Origin: Promethearchaeia archaeon
GTDB taxonomy: Archaea; Asgardarchaeota; Lokiarchaeia; Sigyniarchaeales; SOKP01
Reading direction: 5' to 3'
DNA: 32,000 bases
Assembly: GCA_046497275.1 (NCBI GenBank)
Contig: JAWOFX010000167.1
Coordinates: forward strand, 1 to 32,000
A program made the translations under genes and the position numbers. Each line of letters begins with the position of its first letter. The stretch's first letter is position 1. Under the pieces are notes generated by a model. It was not told the DNA's origin. It ran no database searches and saw nothing but the letters and a program-made list of their open reading frames with translations. Positions 403 through 12,556 of this stretch are shown here, piece by piece.

Positions 403-1857
403 TTAACTCGCGATAATTGAGAGGATATTGATTAGTGAATTTACTTTATTCATAATGTTTATTCCGAAAGAAGAGAGATATTTTGTTTGATAATTTACAT
501 TCACATCAATCGGAGGAAATAGCATTTTAGAGGTTCTACTTAGATTAACGTAATCTTTAAAACTATTGGTTTTTAGGTTTATTCCGAAGTGATGGTCATA
601 GTGGTGTATAGGGCATCCAGGAGTTATAATAATCGGTTCGGTCCAAAATGATGTGGTATTATGTGAAGAAAGACTTTTTACAAACAATTTAAATGCATAG
701 AGAAAGTTATTTAATACATCTATCCCTGTTTCTTGAGGATTTCCTATATCCCAAAATAATCTCAAGGGAACTTTATGCTTATTCATTAAGTTAATTAAAC
801 CATCAAGATCAGAATTGGTAAATCTAAATGAATTATCTAATCTTCCATATAATTTATGAAACTTTTTCCTATAGGATTCTGAAAAAGATCTAGCACTAAA
901 CCAAATTATAGATTTTTCTAAATCATAAGTCTTAGCAAAATCACGGGTTGCTTTCTCACTGATAGGTAATCTCCATAATTCTAAATCTGCATGAATATCT
1001 AATTTCTCTTCACGGATTAATTTATTAATCTCCATAAAATATTTTTCGGTAACAGGATAAATTCCATGTCCATAATAAATACCATTTACATCACTTATTT
1101 CAGCAACTTTTTTTATATCTTCAACAACTTTTTCTGGAGATCTAAAAATCGTTTTTTTCCTGCCTATATAACGACTATAGGTTGCATAAGAGCCAGCACA
1201 ATTAACACAATTAAAGGGGCATCCTCTTGCCATTTCGACAGGCCATGCATTATGCATTACATTATATGTATAGGAAATATATTCTTTCCAATGTTCTAAG
1301 AAATGGAAATTAGTGAAATTTAAGTCATCCAAATTTTCTGTTAAATAGGTTATATTATTATCATAAATTTTTCCATTATTCCGATATATTAGATTGGGGA
1401 CTTTATCTAAGGAATTGATATGTTTAGCTAATTGAACTATTGGCACTTCTGCGTCACTTTTAATGATACCATCAATGAAATCATAAGCATTCATAATTTC
1501 TTCAGCAAAATATGTTGCTGTATATCCACCTAAAACAGTAAAAGAGGAGGGACAGAGAATTTTTGCCATTTTTATAACATCCAGAGCTCCAGCACTATGT
1601 AAAGCCCATTGGAGGTCGACTCCTATAATTTTAGGATTAAATCTTTTGAGATATTTAGGTAAGGAGAAGTTAGGATTTAAATGCTTTTCTAATGCATAAT
1701 TAATTATTTTTACATTAAAACCTTCTCTTTCAAGCAAATCCGCCATAGAAAACAATCCCATTGGCATCGTTAAATAGGAGCTCCTTTTTTCCAGGTTATG
1801 AGTTAAAAACTCAAAATTACGAGGTGGATGTATAAAAAGTAAATCAAGTTCTGTCAT
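403..1857 (-). CDS. B12-binding domain radical SAM protein
   Basis: N-terminal cobalamin-binding fold signatures (LFIHPP, PMGLFSMA, IIGVDLQWALHS, VLGGYTAT) and the CxxxCxxC motif ARGCPFNCVNCAG followed by FRSPEKVVEDI. Confidence 0.9.
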   Translation of the reverse strand: MTELDLLFIHPPRNFEFLTHNLEKRSSYLTMPMGLFSMADLLEREGFNVKIINYALEKHLNPNFSLPKYLKRFNPKIIGVDLQWALHSAGALDVIKMAKILCPSSFTVLGGYTATYFAEEIMNAYDFIDGIIKSDAEVPIVQLAKHINSLDKVPNLIYRNNGKIYDNNITYLTENLDDLNFTNFHFLEHWKEYISYTYNVMHNAWPVEMARGCPFNCVNCAGSYATYSRYIGRKKTIFRSPEKVVEDIKKVAEISDVNGIYYGHGIYPVTEKYFMEINKLIREEKLDIHADLELWRLPISEKATRDFAKTYDLEKSIIWFSARSFSESYRKKFHKLYGRLDNSFRFTNSDLDGLINLMNKHKVPLRLFWDIGNPQETGIDVLNNFLYAFKLFVKSLSSHNTTSFWTEPIIITPGCPIHHYDHHFGINLKTNSFKDYVNLSRTSKMLFPPIDVNVNYQTKYLSSFGINIMNKVNSLINILSIIAS

Positions 1858-2016: not shown

Positions 2017-3369
2017 TTATTTAGATAAATTTTCGGTTTCAATGATTTGTTTTTCCAGTATGACTGGAGTTTGTTCCCAACTCATATCTTCGGGCAGAGT
2101 GAATTGCCTTATGAAATGATAAAAATGAATCCATCCACTTACTGGCCAATAAAATAATAAACTATAATGTTTATCAGAATATTTTCGTATTGCATTTATG
2201 AAATAACCAACATTGAATATAATCCAAGATAGAGTCCATATTAGTAAATAATATTCACTAATAAAGAAGAACAATACTGATAAGACAATAGGAATGATAA
2301 AGTTGGTATCTGTGTTAGCAAAGATAAACATAGTTAGATTTCTCGGAATAATTATAGCTTTTCCCGTTTTTTCCTCTCCTTCCATTTCCATTAATTCGGG
2401 CGCGTCTAAGGTAAATCCTGCCATCCATCGTGTTCTCTGCATTTTCAAAACTTCCACATTATCTGGAACTGTATCATAAGCCTTTGCTTGCGGAACAAAG
2501 AGAATATCAACACCATCTAAATTCAAGAGTACTTGCAGATAAAGATCTTCTGTTAAAGAATTTTCGTTGAATCCCCCATATTTTTTTAAATATTTCGTTC
2601 TTAAAGCAATATTACGGCCAAATAAAAATGCTGAACATCCCAATCTATTTCTTGTCTCAAATAGGAGTCCTCCTCCACAACATAAACCGTATTCAAGCAT
2701 TATTCCTCTAGTTAAAGCATTATCTTTCCAATTTTTTACGGATAATGATCCAATAACTGCATTATATTGTTGAAATTGGAATGGATTAACTAAATGGGTA
2801 AGACATTCAGGCGTCAAAATGTTGCCACAATCATAGAATATAACAATATCATGTTTGATATGTTCTATCCCCAAATTAAGCTTAGAAGGTTTGCCTGGAT
2901 TTGGAGGTATTTCTGATATCGTCTTTATATCCATCATACTCCCATATTTTTCTGCAAATTGGTGACTAAATTCCGTCGTACCATCAGTTGATTCACCTGT
3001 GAGTAATATTAGTTGAATATGCTCTTTTGGATAAGTTGTCTTCAAAAGAGAATCTAATGTTTGCTCTAATAGCACCTTTTCGTTTTTCGAAGGGATCATT
3101 ATAGTTATGTCTGGATAATATTCTTCTTTCATTCTGTAACCTTTTCCAAAGGAAGCGAGAAAAAAGATTCCGTAACCCATTATAAGTGCTAATAAGAGCA
3201 TTAACCCAATGCACGGAAAAATAAATAACCAATTTCCAAGGGGGTTAGCAAAAAATGCATCTATCGCGATTTTTACCCCTGAATTCCATTGAGTCGGCCA
3301 GAATATATGTAGCAATACAAAGTAGGCAATAACTACGATTGCATATGGTAAAACTCTACTTATTTTCAT
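2017..3369 (-). CDS. GT2 glycosyltransferase, processive/cellulose-synthase-like superfamily (copy a)
   Basis: N-terminal TM segments, ITIMIPSKNE, PGKPSKLN, YDCG, LTED, QRTRW (QxxRW), C-terminal TM helices. Confidence 0.9.
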   Translation of the reverse strand: MKISRVLPYAIVVIAYFVLLHIFWPTQWNSGVKIAIDAFFANPLGNWLFIFPCIGLMLLLALIMGYGIFFLASFGKGYRMKEEYYPDITIMIPSKNEKVLLEQTLDSLLKTTYPKEHIQLILLTGESTDGTTEFSHQFAEKYGSMMDIKTISEIPPNPGKPSKLNLGIEHIKHDIVIFYDCGNILTPECLTHLVNPFQFQQYNAVIGSLSVKNWKDNALTRGIMLEYGLCCGGGLLFETRNRLGCSAFLFGRNIALRTKYLKKYGGFNENSLTEDLYLQVLLNLDGVDILFVPQAKAYDTVPDNVEVLKMQRTRWMAGFTLDAPELMEMEGEEKTGKAIIIPRNLTMFIFANTDTNFIIPIVLSVLFFFISEYYLLIWTLSWIIFNVGYFINAIRKYSDKHYSLLFYWPVSGWIHFYHFIRQFTLPEDMSWEQTPVILEKQIIETENLSK

Positions 3370-3419: not shown

Positions 3420-4271
3420 TTAATTAAATAAATCACTTCTCAGTGATCTCGTATATTTTTTTATTTCTTGATTTGAATTGATTGTTTCAATTCTTTTTCC
3501 AATGATCATAAAAAAATCATTTCTGACAAGAAAAAGAATTTCACACATATCGATAACAAATTTCTTTAAATCATAGAATGGTTCATTCTGATGAAGAATT
3601 ATTGTGTGAACATGATTTTTATTATATTTGAAAGCAAAAGGAAAAAGCTTTTTAATATTAGGGATATAAAAAAGAGATAAGTGAAATAAAATCTGGTTTT
3701 TGTCAGTTTGATAAACAAATCGTGGTGTAATTGAAGATTTTTGTCTAATAAATTTTACATTTTTCCAAAAATTAAATTTTTTAAATCTTTTATAATAGAG
3801 GGGGAAAAATGAATCATTTTTAAATATCAATACTGGATTATAAAATTGTCTTTCTAAAAATTCTGATTCAAACTCTTCTTCTTTATTAGAACTTGAGTTA
3901 TAAGTCTGATAATAATAAAAGAAATTAATATCTAATAACGAAAAATTTAATTCTTCTGGATATCTCATCCTTGTATAGAAACGAAAGAGAATTCCGTTGA
4001 TATTAAATAGAAAACCATAAAAAAAAATAATATCTAATAGATTTCCTATGCTAAATTGTAAGGTGGGACCTATCCTTGAAGTAAATTCAAAAATCTTAAA
4101 CTTAGAAAACCAAGGAAATAGTATAGATCCTCCAGAAACCATATAATCGCAAAATAAATATTTCAAATTTGGTATTTGGCTTAAATAGTTCAACAATAAA
4201 ACTAAAGGGATATAAGATAGAAGGCATATCATCAAAATAATAATTTTAGACGTTAAAGTTTTCTTTGACAC
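3420..4271 (-). CDS. Uncharacterised membrane protein X (copy 1, shorter), GTG start
   Basis: Paralogous to 6647-7651 and 9110-10099; shared motifs YLFCDYMxSGGSILFPW, GNLLDII, CEILFLxRNDFFMI; synonymous differences between copies (e.g. GTC vs GTT Val) support this frame. Confidence 0.75.
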   Translation of the reverse strand: MSKKTLTSKIIILMICLLSYIPLVLLLNYLSQIPNLKYLFCDYMVSGGSILFPWFSKFKIFEFTSRIGPTLQFSIGNLLDIIFFYGFLFNINGILFRFYTRMRYPEELNFSLLDINFFYYYQTYNSSSNKEEEFESEFLERQFYNPVLIFKNDSFFPLYYKRFKKFNFWKNVKFIRQKSSITPRFVYQTDKNQILFHLSLFYIPNIKKLFPFAFKYNKNHVHTIILHQNEPFYDLKKFVIDMCEILFLVRNDFFMIIGKRIETINSNQEIKKYTRSLRSDLFN

Positions 4272-4332
4272 GGTTAAGTTCTTTTGTTTATTATTTGTCT
4301 AATCATATAATTAAAAAAAAATTAAGAAAATT

Positions 4333-5691
4333 TTATTTAGATTTAGATAAATTCTCGGTTTCAATGGTTTGTTTCTCCAATATGACTGGTGTTTGTTCCC
4401 AACTTAGGTCCTCGGGTAAGGTAAATTGCCGTATGAACATATAAAAATGAAAAAATCCGCCTATAGGCCAATAAAGCAATAAACTAAAATGTTTATCACA
4501 ATATTTCCATATTGCGTTTAGGAAATATCCAAATTGGAAAAGAACACAAGATAAACTCCAAAATAACAGATAATATTCACCAACCAATGAAAATAATATT
4601 GCAAATACTACAGGAATACCCATCCAAGAATCTACATTACCAAAGATAAACATAGTTAGATTACGTGGAATAATTATCTGTTTTCCGGTTTTTTCTTTTC
4701 CTTCCATTTCCATTAATTCAGGGGCATCTAACGTAAATCCTGCCATCCACCGAGTTCGTTGCATTTTCAAAACTTCCACATTATCTGGAACTGTATCATA
4801 AGTCTTTGCTTGCGGAACAAAGAGAATATCAACACCATCTAAATTCAAGAGTACATGAAGATACAAATCTTCTGTTAAAGAGTTCTCGTTGAATCCCCCA
4901 TATTTTTTTAAATATTTCGTTCTTAATGCAACATTTCGGCCAAAAAAAAATGCTGAACATCCCAATCTATTTCTTGTTTCCAATAGGAGTCCACCCCCAT
5001 CAGTTAAGCCATAGGAAACCATAACACCTTTAGTTAAAGCATTATCTTTCCAATTTTTTACGGATAAAGGTCCAATAACTGCATTATATTGTTCAAATTG
5101 GAATGGATTAACTAAATGGGTAAGACATTCAGGCGTCAAAATGTTGCCACAATCATAAAATACAACAATATCATGCTTGATATGTTTTATCCCCAGATTA
5201 AGCTTAGCCGGTTTCCCTGGATTTGGAGGTACTTCTGAATCAGTTGTAATATCCATCATATTTCCATATTTTTGGGCAAATTGTTCACTAAATTCCGTTG
5301 TACCATCGGTTGACTCTCCCGTAAGCAATATTAGTTGAATATGCTCTTTTGGATAAGTGGTTTCTAAAAGAGAATCCAAGGTCTGCTCCAATAATATTTT
5401 TTCATTTTTCGAAGGGATCACTATAGTTATGTCTGGATAATATTCTCCTTTCGTTCTATAGCCTTTTCCAAAGGAAGCAAGGAAAAAGATACCGTAAACT
5501 ATATTTAGCACTAATAATAGCATTAATCCGATGAATGGAAAGATAAATAACCAATTTCCAAGTGGGTTAGCAAAGAAATTATCTATAGCAATTTTTACTC
5601 CTGAATTCCATTGAGATGGCCAGAAGATATGTAGCAACACAAAGTAGGCAATAACTACGACTGCATATGGTAAAACTCTACTTATTTTCAT
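4333..5691 (-). CDS. GT2 glycosyltransferase (copy b)
   Basis: Same motifs as copy a: IPSKNE, PGKPAKLN, YDCG, LTED, QRTRW. Confidence 0.9.
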   Translation of the reverse strand: MKISRVLPYAVVVIAYFVLLHIFWPSQWNSGVKIAIDNFFANPLGNWLFIFPFIGLMLLLVLNIVYGIFFLASFGKGYRTKGEYYPDITIVIPSKNEKILLEQTLDSLLETTYPKEHIQLILLTGESTDGTTEFSEQFAQKYGNMMDITTDSEVPPNPGKPAKLNLGIKHIKHDIVVFYDCGNILTPECLTHLVNPFQFEQYNAVIGPLSVKNWKDNALTKGVMVSYGLTDGGGLLLETRNRLGCSAFFFGRNVALRTKYLKKYGGFNENSLTEDLYLHVLLNLDGVDILFVPQAKTYDTVPDNVEVLKMQRTRWMAGFTLDAPELMEMEGKEKTGKQIIIPRNLTMFIFGNVDSWMGIPVVFAILFSLVGEYYLLFWSLSCVLFQFGYFLNAIWKYCDKHFSLLLYWPIGGFFHFYMFIRQFTLPEDLSWEQTPVILEKQTIETENLSKSK

Positions 5692-5739
5692 ATATTAACA
5701 CTCCTTTTTTTTATTTTCGATATTATTTTTCGATTCATT

Positions 5740-6666
5740 TCAATTTTCAATTTTTTTAAGATTTTTATAGCTATAATTTCCTAACTGTATACAGCATACA
5801 ACCATAATAACGAATAGAGTAAATTGAGAAATCAAAATACACCATGTTATCACTGCGGGATGAGATACGCTCCATGCCACATTTAAAGCAGGATTAATCA
5901 GATTGGTTAAGAAAACTGAGATACTAGAAATTCCGTAAATCATGAAGAAAGTAGATAGAATTATTACTCGCATCGGTCTTTCTCCTATATATGGGTTAAT
6001 TTGATGTAATCCTAAACCTTCATGCCTTGCTCTCATATATTCATATAGTTGAATCAATAATATGTTTGTCCAGACTATCCATGAAAAATCTAATCCAACA
6101 TTTTGAAGAATTAAAATATTTCCTGGAATCAATCCTACTAACATTAATATATCACTAATTCTATCGATTACATTATCAAACCACGCCCCGCTTTTAGATT
6201 TTTTATTGGATAATCTCGCAATTGCACCATCTATTCCATCAATAATTCCAGCTCCTAAAACTAGAAGGGAAGTAATGATAAATAGTGAGCCAAAAACTGG
6301 CTGTTCAGTAAATAAATTAAGTGAGTGGCCTTTACCTCCCATAACCGAAGTATAAAAGATAAAAAAAGATAATATTAAATTTATCAATGATACTTTATTA
6401 GGACTTACCCTTAATTTCAAAAAGAATTTTGCTCCTTTATAAGTTATGGGCATATACAACTTTCCTGTAGGTTCACTTTTTATTCTTTTAAATTGCTTAT
6501 CCATTTTATGTCCTTGTCCATGACCCAATAGCCAATCTCTTATAAATTCATCTAAGTTCATCAATTCAGGTTCTTTGTATTCATTTTTAATTCCACTGAT
6601 TAGAATTATCAATAGTAATACCAATAATATAATTGGAAAATATAGCTCAAAGATTATTTCTGTCAA
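5740..6666 (-). CDS. CDP-alcohol phosphatidyltransferase family protein, TTG start
   Basis: Family signature DxxDGxxAR...GxxxDxxxD present as DGIDGAIARLSNKKSKSGAWFDNVIDRISD; SPNKVS; multiple TM segments. Confidence 0.92.
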   Translation of the reverse strand: MTEIIFELYFPIILLVLLLIILISGIKNEYKEPELMNLDEFIRDWLLGHGQGHKMDKQFKRIKSEPTGKLYMPITYKGAKFFLKLRVSPNKVSLINLILSFFIFYTSVMGGKGHSLNLFTEQPVFGSLFIITSLLVLGAGIIDGIDGAIARLSNKKSKSGAWFDNVIDRISDILMLVGLIPGNILILQNVGLDFSWIVWTNILLIQLYEYMRARHEGLGLHQINPYIGERPMRVIILSTFFMIYGISSISVFLTNLINPALNVAWSVSHPAVITWCILISQFTLFVIMVVCCIQLGNYSYKNLKKIEN

Positions 6667-7651
6667 ATATATACCTCATTTTATATTTTTTATTTAAATT
6701 AATTGTTTGAATTCTCTTTCTGCTGATCATAAAAAAATCATTTCTAACAAGAAAAAGAATTTCACACAAATAGACGAAAAATTTTTCTAAATCAGATAAT
6801 AAATCATTCTGATCATTAATTATTGTGTGAGCTTGATTTTTGTAATATTTTTTACTTAATTGAGAAAAGAATTTAATATTAGGGATAAAAATAATATGAG
6901 AATGAGAAAAATTGATTATAAAATTCATTATGACAAGTATGTCTCTATTATTTTGATTAGTAATTAAATAGGGTTTGTTATTAAAGAAGTAAGACCTAAA
7001 TTTTAACCAAAGTAGGACAATTGAGTAAAGAATGATAAAATCAGAAAAAAATAATAAAGATAAATTCGAAAAAATATGTTTTTTATAAGATTCATGAGGA
7101 GGATGTAATTTAATCCAGGATCTTGTTCTTATGAATTTTAGGTTTTTCCAAAAATAAATATTTTTAAAATGTCTATACAGTTCTGAAAATAAAAATTTAT
7201 TTTTAAATATGAGTAATGGTTCATAATCTTGGTGATTTAAAAATTCCTGTTTGAAATCTTCTTTATTAGACTTTGTATGGTTGATCTGATAATAATAGAA
7301 AAAATTAATACCTGAGAATAAAGAATTTGATTCATCTGAATATTTGATCCTTGTATAAAAACGAAAGAAAATTCCATTGATATTAAATAGAGCAACATAA
7401 AAAACAATAATATCTAACAAATTTCCTAAGCTAAAGTTTATATTTGGTCCTATTTTTGATGTAAATTCAAAAATTTCAAACGATGAAAGCCAAGGAAAGA
7501 GTATTGACCCTCCAGAAATCATATAATCGCAAAATAAATATTTTAAAGAGGGTAATTGACTTAAATAGTTTATTAATAAGACAATAGGGAAATATGAGAG
7601 AAGAGATATCATCAAAATAACAATTACATGCTTAAATGCTTTTTCTAACAT
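6647..7651 (-). CDS. Uncharacterised membrane protein X (copy 2)
   Basis: 334-aa ORF with conserved X motifs; stop overlaps the start of the CDP-alcohol transferase by 20 nt. Confidence 0.75.
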   Translation of the reverse strand: MLEKAFKHVIVILMISLLSYFPIVLLINYLSQLPSLKYLFCDYMISGGSILFPWLSSFEIFEFTSKIGPNINFSLGNLLDIIVFYVALFNINGIFFRFYTRIKYSDESNSLFSGINFFYYYQINHTKSNKEDFKQEFLNHQDYEPLLIFKNKFLFSELYRHFKNIYFWKNLKFIRTRSWIKLHPPHESYKKHIFSNLSLLFFSDFIILYSIVLLWLKFRSYFFNNKPYLITNQNNRDILVIMNFIINFSHSHIIFIPNIKFFSQLSKKYYKNQAHTIINDQNDLLSDLEKFFVYLCEILFLVRNDFFMISRKRIQTINLNKKYKMRYIFDRNNL

Positions 7652-7710
7652 TTGTATTCCCTTTTGATTATTATATTTTTTATAATTAAATTAAAAAAAT
7701 TGAAATAAGA

Positions 7711-9063
7711 TTATTTAGATATATTTTCGGTTTCTGAGACTTGTTTTTCCAACAATATTGGAGTTTGCTCCCAACTCATCTCTTCTGGCAAAGTAAACTG
7801 GCGTACAAAATGATAAAGAAGTATGTAGCCGCTAATTGGGAAATATAGCAATAGGCTATAGTGTTTATCCCCATATTTTCGTACTGCGTTGAGTAAATAG
7901 CCAAATTGGAATAATACACAAGATAAACTCCAACTTAGTAAATAATATTCTCCGAATATCGCAAATAATATTGAAAATATAATTGGAATTGGCGACCAGG
8001 TATCAACATTCCCATATGTAAACATTGTCAGATTTCTTGGAATAATTACTGCTTTTCCATTTTTTACCTTTCCTTCCATTTCCATTAGTTCTGGGGCATC
8101 TAATGTAAATCCAGCCATCCAACGGTCTCGTTGCATTTTCAAGATTTTCCAATTATCCGGAACGGTATCATAAACTTTTGCTTGAGGAACAAAATGAATA
8201 TCAATTCCATCCATATTTAATAATACTTGAAGATACAGATCTTCTGTTAAGGAATCCTCTTTAAATCCCCCAAATTTCTTTAGATATTTTGTTCTCAATG
8301 CAACATTACGGCCAAATAGAAATGTTGAAGAGCCTAAACGATTTCTCGTTTCAAATAAGAGCCCTCCACCACAAACATGGGAATATTCAAGAGCTATCCC
8401 TTTAGTTATATAATTATCTTTCCAATTTTTCACTAATACGGGACCTATAACTGCATTATATTTTTCATATTGGAACGGATTGATTAAATGTGTGAGAGTA
8501 TCGGGCTTCAGAATGTCGCCACAATCATAGAATACAACAATATCATGCTTGATATGTTTTATCCCCAGATTAAGCTTAGCTGGTTTCCCCGGATTTGGAG
8601 GTACTTCTGAATCAGTTGTAATATCCATCATATTTCCATATTCTTGGGCAAAATTTTCACTAAATTCCGTCGTACCATCCGTAGATTCTCCTGTAAGTAA
8701 TATTAATTGGATATGCTCTTTTGGATACGTCGTTTCTAAAAGAGAATCTAAAGTCTGCTCTAATAATACTTTTTCATTCTTCGAAGGTATCACTATACTT
8801 ATGTCTGGATAATATTCTTCTTTCATTCTATACCCTTTTCCAAACGAAGCAAGGAAAAAGATACCGTAAGCTATGTTTAGCACTAATAATAGCATTAATC
8901 CAATGAAAGGAAAAATGAATAACCAATTTCCAAGAGGGTTAGCAAAAAATGCATCTATCGCGATTTTTACTCCTGAATTCCATTGGGTCGGCCAGAATAT
9001 ATGTAGCAATACAAAGTAGGCAATAACTACGACTGCATATGGTAAAACTCTACTTATTTTCAT
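7711..9063 (-). CDS. GT2 glycosyltransferase (copy c)
   Basis: IPSKNE, PGKPAKLN, YDCGD, LTED, QRDRW; TM segments at both ends. Confidence 0.9.
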   Translation of the reverse strand: MKISRVLPYAVVVIAYFVLLHIFWPTQWNSGVKIAIDAFFANPLGNWLFIFPFIGLMLLLVLNIAYGIFFLASFGKGYRMKEEYYPDISIVIPSKNEKVLLEQTLDSLLETTYPKEHIQLILLTGESTDGTTEFSENFAQEYGNMMDITTDSEVPPNPGKPAKLNLGIKHIKHDIVVFYDCGDILKPDTLTHLINPFQYEKYNAVIGPVLVKNWKDNYITKGIALEYSHVCGGGLLFETRNRLGSSTFLFGRNVALRTKYLKKFGGFKEDSLTEDLYLQVLLNMDGIDIHFVPQAKVYDTVPDNWKILKMQRDRWMAGFTLDAPELMEMEGKVKNGKAVIIPRNLTMFTYGNVDTWSPIPIIFSILFAIFGEYYLLSWSLSCVLFQFGYLLNAVRKYGDKHYSLLLYFPISGYILLYHFVRQFTLPEEMSWEQTPILLEKQVSETENISK

Positions 9064-9109
9064 ATTTTAACACTTTTTATTTTTTATTTATAATTTTTTA
9101 ATTTTCAAT

Positions 9110-10099
9110 TTAACAACTAATAAAATCATTTTTCAATGATTTCATCCATTTTTTATTTTTATTATTCAAATTAATTGTTTGAATTCTTTTTCTATTGATC
9201 ATAAAAAAATCATTTCTAGCAAGAAAAAGAATTTCACACAAATCGATAGTAAATTTCTTTAAATCACAGAATAGTTCATTCTGATCAATACTTATTGTGT
9301 GAACGTGATTTTCGTAATATTTTTTACTTAATTGAGAAAAGAATTTAATATTTAGGATAAAAATAAGATAACAGCGTGAAAAAATGATGAGGATGGTTAA
9401 TGTAAGTTTATCCTTGGTTTCTTGAATAGTAATAAAATAAGATTTTTTATTATAATAGTAATAAGAAAATTTTAACCAAAGAAAAACAATTTGGAAGAGA
9501 ATGATAAAATTAGAAAAAATAAATGGTTTAGAGATCTTATGGGAAAATTTTAATTTATTAATAGACCCTAATCCTATAATTTTAAATTTTTTTCTTAGAG
9601 TTTTTTCTTTAAATCTTCTAATAGGGTGTATAGATAAAAGTTTATTATTAGATATGAATATAGAGTCGAAATTTTGACTATTTATGAAATCTAACTCCAT
9701 ATTTTCTTCTATATCAGAAGTTTCATTATTTGGTTGATAATAATAATAAAAATTAAGATCTGAGAGTAATGAATTTGGTTCTTCTGGATATCTAATTCTA
9801 GCATAAAACCTAAATATAACTCCATTAAGATAAAAAAGAACATTATAGAAGATAATAATATCTAATAAATTCCCTAAACTAAAAAATACATTCGGTCCTA
9901 TTCTTGAGGTAAATTCAAAAATCTTAAAAGAGGATAACCAAGGAAAGAGTATTGATCCTCCAGAAATCATATAATCGCAAAATAAATACTTTAAATGAGG
10001 TAAATTACTTAAGTGGTTTAATAAAAAGATAAGAGGGATATATGAAAGAAGAGATATCATCAAAATGATAATTTTGATCTTTAAATCCTTCTTTAACAA
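9110..10099 (-). CDS. Uncharacterised membrane protein X (copy 3), TTG start
   Basis: 329-aa ORF with conserved X motifs at N- and C-termini. Confidence 0.75.
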   Translation of the reverse strand: MLKKDLKIKIIILMISLLSYIPLIFLLNHLSNLPHLKYLFCDYMISGGSILFPWLSSFKIFEFTSRIGPNVFFSLGNLLDIIIFYNVLFYLNGVIFRFYARIRYPEEPNSLLSDLNFYYYYQPNNETSDIEENMELDFINSQNFDSIFISNNKLLSIHPIRRFKEKTLRKKFKIIGLGSINKLKFSHKISKPFIFSNFIILFQIVFLWLKFSYYYYNKKSYFITIQETKDKLTLTILIIFSRCYLIFILNIKFFSQLSKKYYENHVHTISIDQNELFCDLKKFTIDLCEILFLARNDFFMINRKRIQTINLNNKNKKWMKSLKNDFISC

Positions 10100-10231: not shown

Positions 10232-11311
10232 TTAATAAAAGATGTCTTCATTAAAATCTTTAACAGTATTGATCATAGCTTTCACATTTTCGGGTTTGAC
10301 TATTGTATTTAATTGTTGAGTCGGGGAAATTATTATACGAGAATTGTACTTTTTTGCAGATCTTATTAATCTCCTAACATATTGGTCAACTTTAAAAGGA
10401 TTGCTATAAGTTAATAAGCTTCCATTATCGAGATTTCCTATGAAACAAATTTGATTACTATATTTTTTAAAAAGTTCAAAGATGTTATTTCCCGCAGTTG
10501 ATTCTATACTTTGTATTCCATCGAAACCCACCTCAATAATAAGATCAAATAGGTTGGAAATATAGCCATCTGAATGGAGGATTATATGATTTTGGTTAGA
10601 ATGTATCATTTCAACAATATCTTGATATTTTTTAAAAAAAAGTTCATGAATTAAATTTTTAGGAATAAAAGTTCTCTGCTTATATCCTAGATCATCCGCT
10701 ATAAGAAAAATTGATGCCCCCGAGTCTTGTAAAAGCTTAATTAATTTTATCAAATAATCGTAGAAAAACTGAATAACTATATTTATTAGTTCTATGTTAT
10801 TTCTTAGAGATTTTGAAAAAGTTATAAATCCCATCGACTGCCATGTTTTCTCAAATAAGCCCGGTAAAGATAAAAAAAAATCAATCCCTTCTGTATTTTC
10901 CAGAAATTTCTTGAGTCTTTTAAGTTCCTTCTGATTTGGGGTTTTTAATTTTGACCAAGTTTCAACGATCTTTTCAGTTTTAAACACTCCCTCCCAGGAA
11001 TACCATCCATTTTTATAGACTCTACCCCATGAATCTATTCTTTCTTTGTTTTTTTCTAAATTATAATTATCATCTGATGCAACTCTTCGAAAATCCCATA
11101 ACGAAACTGCATCAAATCCCATATTTTTAATAATCGAATAATCTTTTCCGTTTAGTATTAAATCTTCATTATGATCAGAAGGAATATTATATTTATTCCT
11201 ATAATTCTCAATAAAAAGGTCTTCAGGAAAACCAGTGCAATATAATGAAATCTTGTTCTTTTCCGTTTTAGTAAGAATTTTTTTAAAGGAAATTTTATAT
11301 CTCTCTGAAAT
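10232..11311 (-). CDS. Uroporphyrinogen decarboxylase / MtaA-CmuA methyltransferase superfamily protein; probable non-canonical (ATT) start
   Basis: ADDLG, HSDG, GFDGIQSIE and CFIGNLD motifs; frame is open for 63 codons upstream of the ATG at 11122 to an in-frame TAA at 11314-11312 (ISERYKISFKKIL...). Confidence 0.8.
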   Translation of the reverse strand: MSERYKISFKKILTKTEKNKISLYCTGFPEDLFIENYRNKYNIPSDHNEDLILNGKDYSIIKNMGFDAVSLWDFRRVASDDNYNLEKNKERIDSWGRVYKNGWYSWEGVFKTEKIVETWSKLKTPNQKELKRLKKFLENTEGIDFFLSLPGLFEKTWQSMGFITFSKSLRNNIELINIVIQFFYDYLIKLIKLLQDSGASIFLIADDLGYKQRTFIPKNLIHELFFKKYQDIVEMIHSNQNHIILHSDGYISNLFDLIIEVGFDGIQSIESTAGNNIFELFKKYSNQICFIGNLDNGSLLTYSNPFKVDQYVRRLIRSAKKYNSRIIISPTQQLNTIVKPENVKAMINTVKDFNEDIFY

Positions 11312-11419: not shown

Positions 11420-12556
11420 ATGAATTATTGGGAAATAGTAGCTGAAATATATAATTCGAGCTTAACCTACACATTATTGGCGATAGTATTTTTAATGGTG
11501 TATATAGGTAATAAAGGAAGGAAAAAAAACCCATACGGGAGTTTATCTACCTTTGTTTGCGCGGGATTATTACTATTTGTAGCATATTATAATTCAATTT
11601 TTGGGCTTTTTGATTATCCTTTCAATGGTTTTATGATGTGGTGGATTGGATTCTTATTAATTTTATTTGGTGGATTTGGCTGGCAAGTTAAAAAAAAATT
11701 AAATGAAATGGATGACCAAGATTTACTTAAACCAAATGATGAGTTATCTAGAATGGAAAGATATCTTAAAAAAATGAATGAAGAAGATCCCTATAGGGAT
11801 CAAATTCCAATAAAAATGGAAATAGTCCGGAAGAGCTTTCACCTAACTGGATTATTATTTATTTTTGGATATTTCAGTCTTTTCTTTCTGCCCCCAATCG
11901 CAGATTTAGCAAATTTAGGAATAATTGTTTTAATAAATTCAACTGAATCAGTTTATAATTTTTTTTGGGGGGACTTAGCTAACTACCCTTATCTTATAGG
12001 AAGTTTTGAGGCCATTATTGATATTACTTTGTTCGGTTTAGTTGGAGCATTTATGTTTATGATTATTTCTGATTTAATTAGAGTATTATGGGCACCAAAA
12101 TATTCAATGTTCAATTTCTTAACTCGTTCTGTGTTGAGGAATCAAGAAAAAAACGCAGTAGGACCCCATATTTATTTAATTGTTGGAGCAATTTTTTCCT
12201 ATATCTTATATGTGCTTGGAGTAGTTCATATTTTAGCATTCACAGCGGGATTGATGATAGCATGTTTTTCTGATGCTTTAGCCGCATTAGTAGGGAGGAT
12301 ATTCGGAAATAAAAAAGTAATTTGTATGGGGGGTCAAGAAAAAACAGTAGAAGGGTTTATTGCAGGTGTCGCAAGTGCGTATCTTTTTGGGTTATTTATT
12401 GTTGGACCATTATATGCTCTAGTAGGGGCATTTATATTTTTCTTATTTGATTATTTTCCAATGCGAATTGCTGATAATATCTTAAATCCCATTTTCATAA
12501 CCTTAGGAATTCAGATTACTCAAATCATAATAGGTTTTCCTTTAGGTCTCTTTTAA
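11420..12556 (+). CDS. CTP-dependent polyprenol/diacylglycerol kinase family (dolichol/phytol kinase-like) membrane protein
   Basis: RKSFH motif, SDALAALVGRIFG..K..KTVEGFIAG cytidylyltransferase-family motif, DNILNP, many TM helices. Confidence 0.85.
   Translation: MNYWEIVAEIYNSSLTYTLLAIVFLMVYIGNKGRKKNPYGSLSTFVCAGLLLFVAYYNSIFGLFDYPFNGFMMWWIGFLLILFGGFGWQVKKKLNEMDDQDLLKPNDELSRMERYLKKMNEEDPYRDQIPIKMEIVRKSFHLTGLLFIFGYFSLFFLPPIADLANLGIIVLINSTESVYNFFWGDLANYPYLIGSFEAIIDITLFGLVGAFMFMIISDLIRVLWAPKYSMFNFLTRSVLRNQEKNAVGPHIYLIVGAIFSYILYVLGVVHILAFTAGLMIACFSDALAALVGRIFGNKKVICMGGQEKTVEGFIAGVASAYLFGLFIVGPLYALVGAFIFFLFDYFPMRIADNILNPIFITLGIQITQIIIGFPLGLF

What the first reader, a model, noticed from the sequence alone, without database searches (positions are those of the whole stretch)
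3420..10099. Orphan 'X' family: conserved ends around a hypervariable core
Seen: three paralogues share an N-terminal block of about 110 aa (TM helix, YLFCDYMxSGGSILFPW, FEFTSxIGP, GNLLDII, FRFYxR) and a C-terminal block (PNIK, HTI, CEILFLxRNDFFMI, KRIxTIN). The middle is hard to align and rich in F/I/K/N. I recognise no domain. Inference: conserved ends dock on the cognate GT2 and the variable core tunes acceptor or export specificity.
Basis: partly seen in the sequence, partly recalled or inferred. Interest (0 to 1): 0.7.

Follow-up and report, generated by a model that had tools for sequence, protein, structure and literature searches.

The report
New Lokiarchaeal two-helix membrane protein family
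The three 'X' genes are real copies of an unnamed small membrane protein found only in Loki-type Asgard archaea. Only its N-terminal two-helix hairpin is conserved, and it always heads the operons of an undescribed radical-SAM and lipid-type biosynthetic island, so it is probably an accessory membrane partner of that pathway.

Summary
X1 (3420-4271), X2 (6647-7651) and X3 (9110-10099), all on the minus strand, are paralogues. Amino-acid identity is 68-72% in the N-block, 31-47% in the middle and 54-68% in the C-block. Every quoted motif is present.

They are not strict orphans. The N-terminal ~105 aa defines a family of 117 clusters (50% identity), seen only in one Asgard class (42 of 400 phylum genomes). 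This part comprises TM1, an acidic Pro/Gly/Ser loop and TM2 with an invariant Asp80. No Pfam, NCBIfam, PDB-sequence or fold match exists.

Only this hairpin is under clear purifying selection (omega 0.1-0.5). The rest is a basic cytoplasmic tail evolving almost neutrally (omega 0.4-1.2). The window's C-block is genus-specific and partly homogenised by gene conversion that also covers the GT2 5' ends.

X is always the first gene of one of two operons:
- Type A: X, CDP-alcohol phosphatidyltransferase, GT2.
- Type B: X, two rSAM/SPASM, a B12-rSAM, an ABBA prenyltransferase and a U32-like protein.

All 30 genomes with type B have X. Twenty-six genomes have the phosphatidyltransferase-GT2 pair without X.

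Best reading: a pathway-specific accessory membrane subunit, not a GT2-specific specificity factor. A membrane-tethered precursor role is not excluded.

An earlier scan note covers this same stretch; no look-alike was found on other DNA.

The parts
9110..10099 (-). X3, 329 aa, TTG start. First gene of the operon.
   Evidence: ORF. Family member, HMM E 3e-175. The TTG start gives the K-rich N-terminus and full TM1 seen across the family.
9785..10099 (-). X3 hairpin domain (residues 1-105): TM1, external loop, TM2. The invariant Asp80 codon is at 9860-9862.
   Evidence: AF2 pLDDT is 80-93 in the full-length model and 77 alone. D80 is invariant in 123/123 sequences and S49 is in 117. dN/dS is 0.16-0.35.
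9110..9358 (-). X3 genus-specific C-block (LNIK, HTI, CEILFLARNDFFMI, KRIQTIN), predicted as a long helix.
   Evidence: Low dS and omega 0.7-1.1.
7711..9063 (-). GT2c, a membrane GT2 with the QxxRW motif (MQRDRW), paired with X3.
   Evidence: Pfam Glyco_tranf_2_3 2.4e-30. The gap to X3 is 46 nt.
6647..7651 (-). X2, 334 aa, ATG start. Hairpin domain at 7337-7651, Asp80 codon at 7412-7414. Its stop overlaps the start of the next gene by 20 nt.
5740..6666 (-). CDP-alcohol phosphatidyltransferase (archaetidylinositol-phosphate-synthase-like), translationally coupled to X2.
   Evidence: PF01066 6.4e-10. NF040950 2.2e-21, below its cut-off. The X-then-CDP-transferase overlap is conserved in relatives.
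4333..5691 (-). GT2b.
   Evidence: 95-98% nucleotide identity to the other GT2 5' ends.
3420..4271 (-). X1, 283 aa, GTG start. Hairpin domain at 3957-4271, Asp80 codon at 4032-4034. It lacks about 50 residues (two hydrophobic segments) present in X2 and X3.
2017..3369 (-). GT2a, paired with X1 (50-nt gap).
403..1857 (-). B12-binding radical SAM protein, nearest the TIGR04190 (Ta0216) family. Last gene of the operon.
   Evidence: Pfam B12-binding plus Radical_SAM. TIGR04190 1.6e-70, below its cut-off. It is syntenic in G004.
10232..11122 (-). URO-D/MtaA-like protein directly upstream of X3 on the same strand. Whether it belongs to the unit is uncertain.
   Evidence: PF01208 1.1e-18. It is not conserved next to X in relatives.

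Best explanation
X1, X2 and X3 belong to a protein family restricted to Lokiarchaeia. The family is a small integral-membrane accessory subunit of a lineage-specific biosynthetic island.

The working part is the N-terminal hairpin. It runs from a K/R-rich N-terminus inside the cell through TM1, an acidic extracytoplasmic or interfacial loop (Y43-x2-S-G47-x-S49-x-F-x-P53 ... P ... N ... F-L-P), and TM2 (G76-[HQN]-L-x-D80-I-I-I ... N86 ... Y96). It ends with the C-terminus back inside.

The hairpin sits in the membrane with, or next to, the pathway's membrane enzymes. Its invariant intramembrane Asp and external loop contact a partner or the lipid-linked product. The long basic cytoplasmic tail is a weakly constrained tether. 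It carries lineage- and operon-specific short motifs that hold the operon's own enzymes at the membrane.

In this genome an X-GT2 unit was copied twice in tandem, so each GT2 has its own X.

Shown: the family, its topology signature, the selection pattern, operon position, co-occurrence and the co-duplication. Inferred: physical association, the tethering role and the absence of catalysis.
For: Family and conservation:
- 117 cluster representatives match only through the N-terminal ~120 aa, always at the protein's N-terminus, with lengths 88-363 aa and no fused forms.
- D80 is invariant in 123 of 123 sequences; S49 is in 117, G47 in 109 and P53 in 106.

Selection:
- Hairpin omega is 0.09-0.50 and tail omega is 0.42-1.18 in eight orthologue or paralogue pairs and in the window.
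- Tails stay open for 120-230 codons in 28% G+C DNA, so the reading frame is maintained.

Topology:
- K+R density is 0.32 before TM1, 0.045 in the loop and 0.13 after TM2.
- Tail net charge has a median of +6.
- AF2 gives a confident two-helix hairpin, with residues 113-192 disordered.

Context:
- X is the first gene of X-CDPOH-GT2(-rSAM) or of X-SPASM-SPASM-B12 rSAM-ABBA PTase-U32-like in 30 loci.
- X overlaps the CDPOH start by 4-20 nt in six type A operons (five relatives' loci and the window's X2), and the gap to SPASM1 is at most 110 nt.
- All 30 SPASM-operon genomes are X-positive. In genus g11 the 7 SPASM-positive genomes are exactly the 7 X-positive ones.
- 38 of 40 X-positive genomes have the CDPOH orthologue.

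Interchangeability: operon types are interspersed on the hairpin tree, for example G028 A and B copies are sisters at 98/94 support.

Co-duplication with GT2 with matching dS.
Against: - No interaction was tested.
- An invariant Asp with a near-invariant Ser, and often His77, could mean catalysis or transport rather than a passive role.
- CDPOH-GT2 operons work without X in 26 genomes, so X is not a general requirement of these enzymes.
- The window's operon enzymes lack the DUF2621-like module carried by the type B enzymes. A single tethering mechanism therefore cannot cover both operon types.
- There is no expression evidence.
- The genome search scored only part of its first-look candidates, so some X-negative calls may be false.
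Confidence: 0.4

Rival explanations
1. X is a ribosomally made substrate. It would be a membrane-tethered RiPP-like precursor, or the precursor of a protein-derived cofactor. The conserved N-part would act as leader and anchor, and the variable C-terminal tail would be cross-linked, methylated, prenylated and cut by the enzymes encoded downstream.
For: - X lies directly upstream of two rSAM/SPASM enzymes whose nearest named relatives include peptide maturases (MftC, PqqE, WgkB, PapB), with no room for another precursor gene (gaps of 110 nt or less).
- It has a conserved N-part and a variable C-part, and occurs in multiple copies.
- About 13 of 18 type B proteins, and roughly 25-30 of 120 family representatives, end in a shared module: (H/Y)P(K)IN, then about 10 aa, then (Y/F)xQxEG(G) at the very C-terminus.
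- Four tailoring enzymes (both SPASM enzymes, the prenyltransferase and a U32-like protein) carry the same ~85-aa DUF2621-like module, as RiPP enzymes carry recognition elements.
- Co-occurrence with this operon is 30 of 30.
Against: - The strongest conservation lies in TM2 and a loop predicted to be outside the cell, out of reach of cytoplasmic enzymes.
- No tail residue is conserved family-wide.
- The window's three copies and the genome's own type B copy lack the EGG end.
- The window's operon has no SPASM enzyme and no DUF2621 module.
- I know of no two-TM RiPP precursor (own knowledge).
- The same enzyme set reads equally well as an anaerobic prenyl-aromatic lipid pathway (U32 plus ABBA PTase plus B12 rSAM).
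Confidence: 0.22
2. One reading: X is a GT2-specific partner, like PgaD for PgaC or IcaD for IcaA. Both of its conserved ends dock on the cognate GT2, and the variable core sets acceptor or export specificity.
For: - X is a small membrane protein whose conserved part is a two-TM hairpin, encoded 46-50 nt upstream of a PgaC/IcaA-like GT2 with QxxRW (best NCBIfam TIGR03937, 2.6e-24).
- X and GT2 were duplicated together and diverged in step.
- An X also sits directly before GT2 in G028.
Against: - The hairpin also heads operons without any GT2, and the operon types are interspersed on the tree.
- Orthologous GT2s lack X in 26 genomes.
- The ancestral neighbour of X is the CDP-alcohol transferase, with overlapping stop and start, not GT2.
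- The C-block is genus-specific with omega about 1 and depressed dS.
- Core omega is about 0.5.
- There is no PgaD or IcaD match in Pfam or NCBIfam.
Confidence: 0.15
3. The hairpin is itself active. It would oligomerise into a small channel, exporter or flippase, or a DgkA-like mini-enzyme, acting on the island's lipid-linked product at the outer leaflet, with Asp80 as the key residue.
For: - An invariant acidic residue lies inside TM2, with near-invariant Ser49 and Gly47 and a polar position 77 (H/Q/N).
- X is the only membrane protein in the type B operon, which has no transporter.
- The weak structural neighbours are two-TM channel subunits: MscL, PAC and TatBC, at Z 3.5-4.5.
Against: The structural scores are at noise level (best Z 4.8, Foldseek E above 4). 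Nothing points to oligomerisation. A 120-230 aa tail is unnecessary for a pore.
Confidence: 0.13
4. The X ORFs are decaying or non-functional duplicates.
For: - Tail omega approaches 1 and is 0.7-1.1 in the C-block.
- Tail composition tracks genomic G+C.
- There is no expression evidence.
Against: - Hairpin omega is 0.16-0.35 among the three copies at dS 0.5-1.1.
- All three frames are intact over 283-334 codons in 28% G+C DNA, where a random frame closes after about 12 codons.
- The family is conserved across a class.
Confidence: 0.03

Closest known systems
PgaD (E. coli PNAG synthase partner of PgaC) and IcaD (staphylococcal partner of IcaA)
   Same: Both are small two-TM inner-membrane proteins with both ends in the cytoplasm. 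They are encoded beside a membrane GT2 synthase with QxxRW and have no catalytic motif. This comparison rests on established knowledge of those systems, plus for X.
   Different: There is no sequence or profile similarity. X is two to three times longer because of its tail. X is encoded upstream, not downstream. X also occurs in operons without GT2, and orthologous GT2s occur without X.
Non-enzymatic accessory factors of quinone-biosynthesis metabolons (UbiJ/UbiK, and UbiT with UbiU/UbiV in the O2-independent route)
   Same: Each is a non-catalytic partner encoded with U32-type proteins and methylating or prenylating enzymes that work on a greasy substrate. The type B operon has a U32-like protein, an ABBA prenyltransferase and B12 rSAMs.
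   Different: UbiJ and UbiT are soluble SCP2 lipid carriers and UbiK is a coiled coil; none is a two-TM hairpin. No homology was detected. The chemistry of the Lokiarchaeal island is unknown.
RiPP and peptide-cofactor precursors with long leaders (proteusin/NHLP-type precursors; MftA, PqqA, QhpC)
   Same: X is the first gene before rSAM/SPASM and B12-rSAM enzymes. It has a conserved N-part and a variable C-part, a conserved motif at the extreme C-terminus in many type B members, and occurs in several copies.
   Different: X is 230-330 aa with two TM helices. Its best-conserved residues are in the membrane or outside the cell. No recognised RRE is present. The window's copies lack the C-terminal motif and the maturases.
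PEN-2 (gamma-secretase subunit, PF10251)
   Same: Both are small hairpin membrane proteins. A 31-residue stretch of some genus-g11 members resembles the PEN-2 re-entrant helix (Y..G..FLP.L...NIFWF). PEN-2 is the top PDB sequence hit for one member, at E 0.12.
   Different: The similarity does not strengthen with the family profile: no PEN-2 hit at E up to 10. The Pfam model hits noise throughout these genomes and in 9 of 14 control genomes. There is no fold match. I treat it as chance or convergence.

Membership tests
Any curated protein family (Pfam-A, NCBIfam) | Score above the family's curated cut-off | tested here: not met
   There are 0 families for X1 and X3, and one chance hit for X2 at E 0.07. 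NCBIfam gives 0. All 123 family members scanned individually gave nothing above any cut-off.
PgaD / IcaD accessory subunits | Sequence membership in the PgaD or IcaD models | tested here: not met
   No such hit appears in Pfam or NCBIfam at E up to 0.1-1.
PgaD / IcaD accessory subunits | Two TM helices with N- and C-termini in the cytoplasm | tested here: met
   The positive-inside pattern and the AF2 hairpin agree. This is prediction only.
PgaD / IcaD accessory subunits | Encoded beside, and needed by, a PgaC/IcaA-type GT2 | tested here: inconclusive
   X is adjacent in this window and in G028. Orthologous GT2s lack X in 26 genomes. The requirement itself cannot be tested here.
RiPP / peptide-cofactor precursor | Gene next to its maturase (rSAM/SPASM) with no other candidate precursor | tested here: met
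   This holds for type B copies only: gaps are 4-110 nt, or overlaps. It does not hold for the window's X1-X3, whose operon has no SPASM enzyme.
RiPP / peptide-cofactor precursor | Conserved recognition (leader) part accessible to cytoplasmic enzymes, with conserved modified residues in the core | tested here: not met
   The conserved residues are in TM2 and the external loop. No tail column is conserved family-wide. A C-terminal EG(G) module exists in only a subset.
RiPP / peptide-cofactor precursor | Covalent modification or cleavage of the peptide | not testable with these tools
   This needs mass spectrometry.
PEN-2 (PF10251) | Pfam gathering score of 25 bits, with the match strengthening under a family profile | tested here: not met
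   The best single-member E is 0.0067 (6 of 123 members). The profile A5 finds no PEN-2 at E up to 10. Genome scans with PF10251 are noise.
Known folds in the PDB | Structural match of the hairpin domain | tested here: inconclusive
   Foldseek gives its best E at 4.1. VIA-align 2 against 48,161 chains gives a best Z of 4.8. The full-length model matches only generic long helices.

The most novel reading that the evidence does not exclude
X is the membrane anchor and shared docking partner, or the substrate itself, of a Lokiarchaeia-specific assembly line. In this reading four different enzymes (two rSAM/SPASM, an ABBA prenyltransferase and a U32-type protein), each tagged with the same DUF2621-like module, are gathered on its cytoplasmic tail. 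That would make it a membrane-tethered RiPP-like or metabolon-anchor system with no described counterpart. The window's triplicated X-GT2 units would be a recruited offshoot that decorates the product.
Probability: 0.2. Interest if true: 0.8.

Novelty: new variant of a known kind. Interest (0 to 1): 0.5.

Why it matters
- Asgard archaea are the closest known relatives of eukaryotes, and their membrane and envelope chemistry is poorly known.
- X is a compact, easily recognised marker (hairpin signature Y-x2-SG-x-S-x-F-x-P ... G-[HQN]-L-x-D-I-I-I). It flags an undescribed island in about a quarter of the genomes of one Lokiarchaeial order. The island is rich in radical SAM enzymes and also holds a prenyltransferase, U32-like proteins, a CDP-alcohol transferase and a GT2.
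- Knowing that only the hairpin is constrained, and that X is tied to the SPASM/prenyltransferase operon rather than to GT2, tells experimenters which construct to express, which residue to mutate (Asp80) and which partners to test.
- If the tail proves to be a docking site or substrate for the module-tagged enzymes, this would be a new way of organising biosynthesis at a membrane.

Tried and rejected
- **Alternative genetic code (table 4):** no change to these ORFs.
- **Pfam, NCBIfam, PDB-sequence and ESM Atlas searches on X:** nothing usable.
- **Foldseek/PDB and VIA-align 2 wide, on both the full-length and hairpin-only AF2 models:** only generic helices or hairpins, with best Z 6.2 on the C-terminal helix and 4.8 on the hairpin.
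- **PEN-2 lead:** followed and rejected as chance.
- **First scan of genome contigs with the close-paralogue alignment:** found nothing.
- **Separate small precursor gene in type B loci:** a search for conserved small ORFs returned only antisense or out-of-frame shadows of the conserved enzymes. The gaps between X and SPASM1 are too short for a gene.
- **The 378-aa divergent neighbour (11420-12556):** unrelated to the U32-like 'unk381' protein.
- **The 263-aa two-TM ORF before the genome's second CDP-alcohol transferase (P0124):** it has X-like architecture but no family motifs and no HMM hit, so it was not counted as a member.
- **DUF2621-like module:** no solved relative was found.
- **Literature searches for this gene combination, DUF2621 and TIGR04190:** no description found.
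Full report
**Anatomy**

The window has 28% G+C and uses the standard code. It comes from a Loki-type Asgard genome. Relatives' loci are titled 'Promethearchaeota archaeon', and public copies of family members are named 'hypothetical protein' or 'membrane protein of unknown function [Candidatus Lokiarchaeota archaeon]'.

On the minus strand, with gaps of 46-61 nt or overlaps, lie these genes in order:
- X3 (9110-10099)
- GT2c (7711-9063)
- X2 (6647-7651)
- a CDP-alcohol phosphatidyltransferase (5740-6666), whose start overlaps the X2 stop by 20 nt
- GT2b (4333-5691)
- X1 (3420-4271)
- GT2a (2017-3369)
- a B12-binding radical SAM protein (403-1857)

**Check of the observation**

X1, X2 and X3 are clear paralogues, at E 1e-69 to 1e-104. 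Identity is 68-72% in the first 112 residues, 31-47% in the middle and 54-68% in the last ~80 residues. X1 lacks about 50 residues holding two hydrophobic segments. The outgroup orthologue keeps them, so this is a deletion in X1. No curated family matches.

**A family, not strict orphans**

Full-length relatives are very few: 7 in 5.8 billion proteins. A profile of the first ~125 residues, however, finds 117 cluster representatives among 1.84 billion proteins. The match is always at the N-terminus of proteins 88-363 aa long, and no fused forms appear.

In whole genomes the domain occurs in 40 of 154 genomes of the same order and in 42 of 400 of the phylum. All positives belong to one class. 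It was not found in the 14 genomes searched of family f2, which I guess from genome sizes holds the cultured Lokiarchaeia.

Across 123 sequences, Asp80 is invariant. Ser49, Gly47, Phe51, Pro53, Pro65 and Gly76 are nearly so. Beyond about residue 110, nothing is conserved family-wide.

**Structure and topology**

AlphaFold2 with the family alignment gives a confident hairpin:
- TM1, residues 4-31
- a short helix, residues 34-46
- a Pro/Gly/Ser-rich loop with a small beta-hairpin
- TM2, residues 75-103

pLDDT is 80-93 in the full-length model and 77 when the hairpin is predicted alone. Residues 113-192 are disordered, and the C-part is modelled at medium confidence, ending in one long helix.

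Charge follows the positive-inside rule. K+R density is 0.32 before TM1, 0.045 in the loop and 0.13 after TM2. Tails have a median net charge of +6. The predicted topology is therefore N-in, loop out, tail in, with Asp80 about seven residues into TM2 from the outside.

Neither model has a meaningful structural neighbour. A weak, repeated resemblance to PEN-2 was followed up. It did not survive profile and control tests.

**Selection**

Among the three copies, dN/dS is 0.16-0.35 in the hairpin, 0.42-0.53 in the middle and 0.73-1.10 in the C-block.

The C-block's similarity comes with depressed synonymous divergence: pS is about 0.2 against 0.4-0.56 elsewhere. Fisher tests give p = 3e-5 for X1/X3, 0.003 for X2/X3 and 0.19 for X1/X2. 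The C-block also lies near a tract of 95-98% nucleotide identity over the GT2 5' ends. Its conservation here is therefore largely recent gene conversion, on top of genus-level conservation: HTI and CE(I/T)xFL persist in the G003 orthologue.

In eight other orthologue or paralogue pairs, the hairpin has omega 0.09-0.50 and the tail 0.42-1.18. Tail composition follows genomic G+C. It is F/I/K/N-rich here and R/S/P/A/G-rich in family f4. The tails nevertheless stay open for 120-230 codons, so length and frame are selected while sequence mostly is not. 'Hypervariable' thus means relaxed constraint, not diversifying selection.

**Genomic context**

In 30 loci from about 25 genomes, X is the first gene of one of two operons:
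- **Type A:** X, CDP-alcohol transferase, GT2 and sometimes a Ta0216-like B12 rSAM. X usually overlaps the transferase start.
- **Type B:** X, two rSAM/SPASM, a B12 rSAM (nearest TIGR04072), an ABBA aromatic prenyltransferase (PF11468) and a U32-like protein.

The two operons are often adjacent. This genome carries type B on another contig (C44:36857).

All 30 genomes with the SPASM operon have X. In genus g11 the two sets are identical, with 7 genomes each. Of 40 X-positive genomes, 38 have the transferase orthologue. Conversely, 26 transferase-positive genomes lack X; in the 10 whose loci were fetched, no X-like ORF lies upstream.

On a hairpin tree, type A and type B copies are interspersed, and within-genome A/B pairs are sisters. 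The window's three copies form a clade sister to the single type A copy of G003. The ancestral arrangement in this genus is therefore X-transferase-GT2. The window gained two extra X-GT2 units, with matching X and GT2 dS. The transferase was not inserted into a module.

**Interpretation**

The part of X that selection preserves is a membrane hairpin whose conserved residues face the membrane or the outside. This hairpin is interchangeable between operons with different enzymes. I therefore read X as a pathway-level accessory membrane subunit (0.40) rather than a GT2-specific specificity factor (0.15).

A precursor or substrate role (0.22) stays open because of several type B features:
- the position of X before SPASM enzymes
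- a C-terminal (H/Y)PxIN ... (Y/F)xQxEG(G) module in many members
- an ~85-aa DUF2621-like module shared by both SPASM enzymes, the prenyltransferase and a U32-like protein

The window's own copies have neither the motif nor module-bearing neighbours.

A small channel or mini-enzyme role (0.13) rests on the invariant Asp. Decay (0.03) is contradicted by the selection data.

Earlier AI notes on this genome read the type B cluster as an anaerobic prenylated-aromatic-lipid pathway. My own Pfam results are compatible with that, but no chemistry was tested.

**Limits**

- There are no interaction, expression or product data.
- The whole-genome HMM searches scored only part of their candidates, so absences mean 'not found in those searched'.
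- dN/dS values are pairwise Nei-Gojobori estimates on short regions.

Noticed in passing
L069:9665-9925, L069:11041-11301, L069:13958-14218 (G000 contig C44); L082:8130-8369: An ~85-aa helical module (W3, P19, R41, D50, P60, F63 and L71 invariant) sits at the N-terminus of both rSAM/SPASM enzymes and of the ABBA prenyltransferase. It also sits at the C-terminus of a U32-like protein, and occurs as stand-alone 65-77 aa ORFs in some loci. All 17 sampled copies hit Pfam DUF2621 (best 8.8e-08). No solved relative exists. No ORF in this window carries it.
   Followed up: partly
L016, L056, L057, L059, L061, L065, L067, L068 (type B X genes); P0008, P0029, P0045, P0057, P0058, P0080 and others: Many type B X proteins end in a shared module: a hydrophobic helix, then (H/Y)P(K)IN, about 10 aa, and (Y/F)xQxEG(G)(Q/K) at the extreme C-terminus. 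The window's PNIK/LNIK may be the remnant of the PxIN part, followed by a genus-specific ~75-aa extension.
   Followed up: partly
window 2017-3369, 4333-5691, 7711-9063 and the 46-50 nt leaders upstream: The three GT2 genes are 95-98% identical in nucleotides over their first ~120-300 nt. They switch nearest partner along their length (b~c at about 8500-8650, a~b at about 8170-8530). This is a gene-conversion mosaic.
   Followed up: partly
window 11420-12556 (+): A divergently transcribed 378-aa membrane protein has a weak CTP_transf_1 (CdsA/dolichol-kinase type) match (E 0.0012, below cut-off). It could supply a CDP-activated or phosphorylated lipid to the neighbouring operon.
   Followed up: no
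L082:8593-9384 (G000 C44:54592-55383): A 263-aa ORF with X-like architecture (TM1, loop, TM2, K/N-rich tail) lies directly upstream of the genome's second CDP-alcohol transferase. It has none of the family motifs and no HMM hit. It may be a degenerate X or an analogue.
   Followed up: partly
L083-L092 (genera g11 and g2); L082:10459-11760: In X-negative genomes the CDP-alcohol-transferase-GT2 pair is commonly followed by a LuxE-like acyl-protein synthetase/adenylating enzyme (PF04443). A sulfotransferase often lies nearby. This hints at acylated or sulfated head-group chemistry.
   Followed up: no
window 4233-4271 and 10061-10099: Public gene calls for X1- and X3-like proteins (P0003, P0006, P0007) start at an internal ATG (MIS/MIC...). 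This removes the K-rich N-terminus and part of TM1. Family alignment supports the upstream GTG (X1) and TTG (X3) starts.
   Followed up: partly
P0007 versus window 3420-4271: An NCBI protein otherwise identical to X1 over the aligned 270 residues differs at four Leu positions in TM1 (L to I, F, F, F). This could be strain variation or an assembly difference.
   Followed up: no
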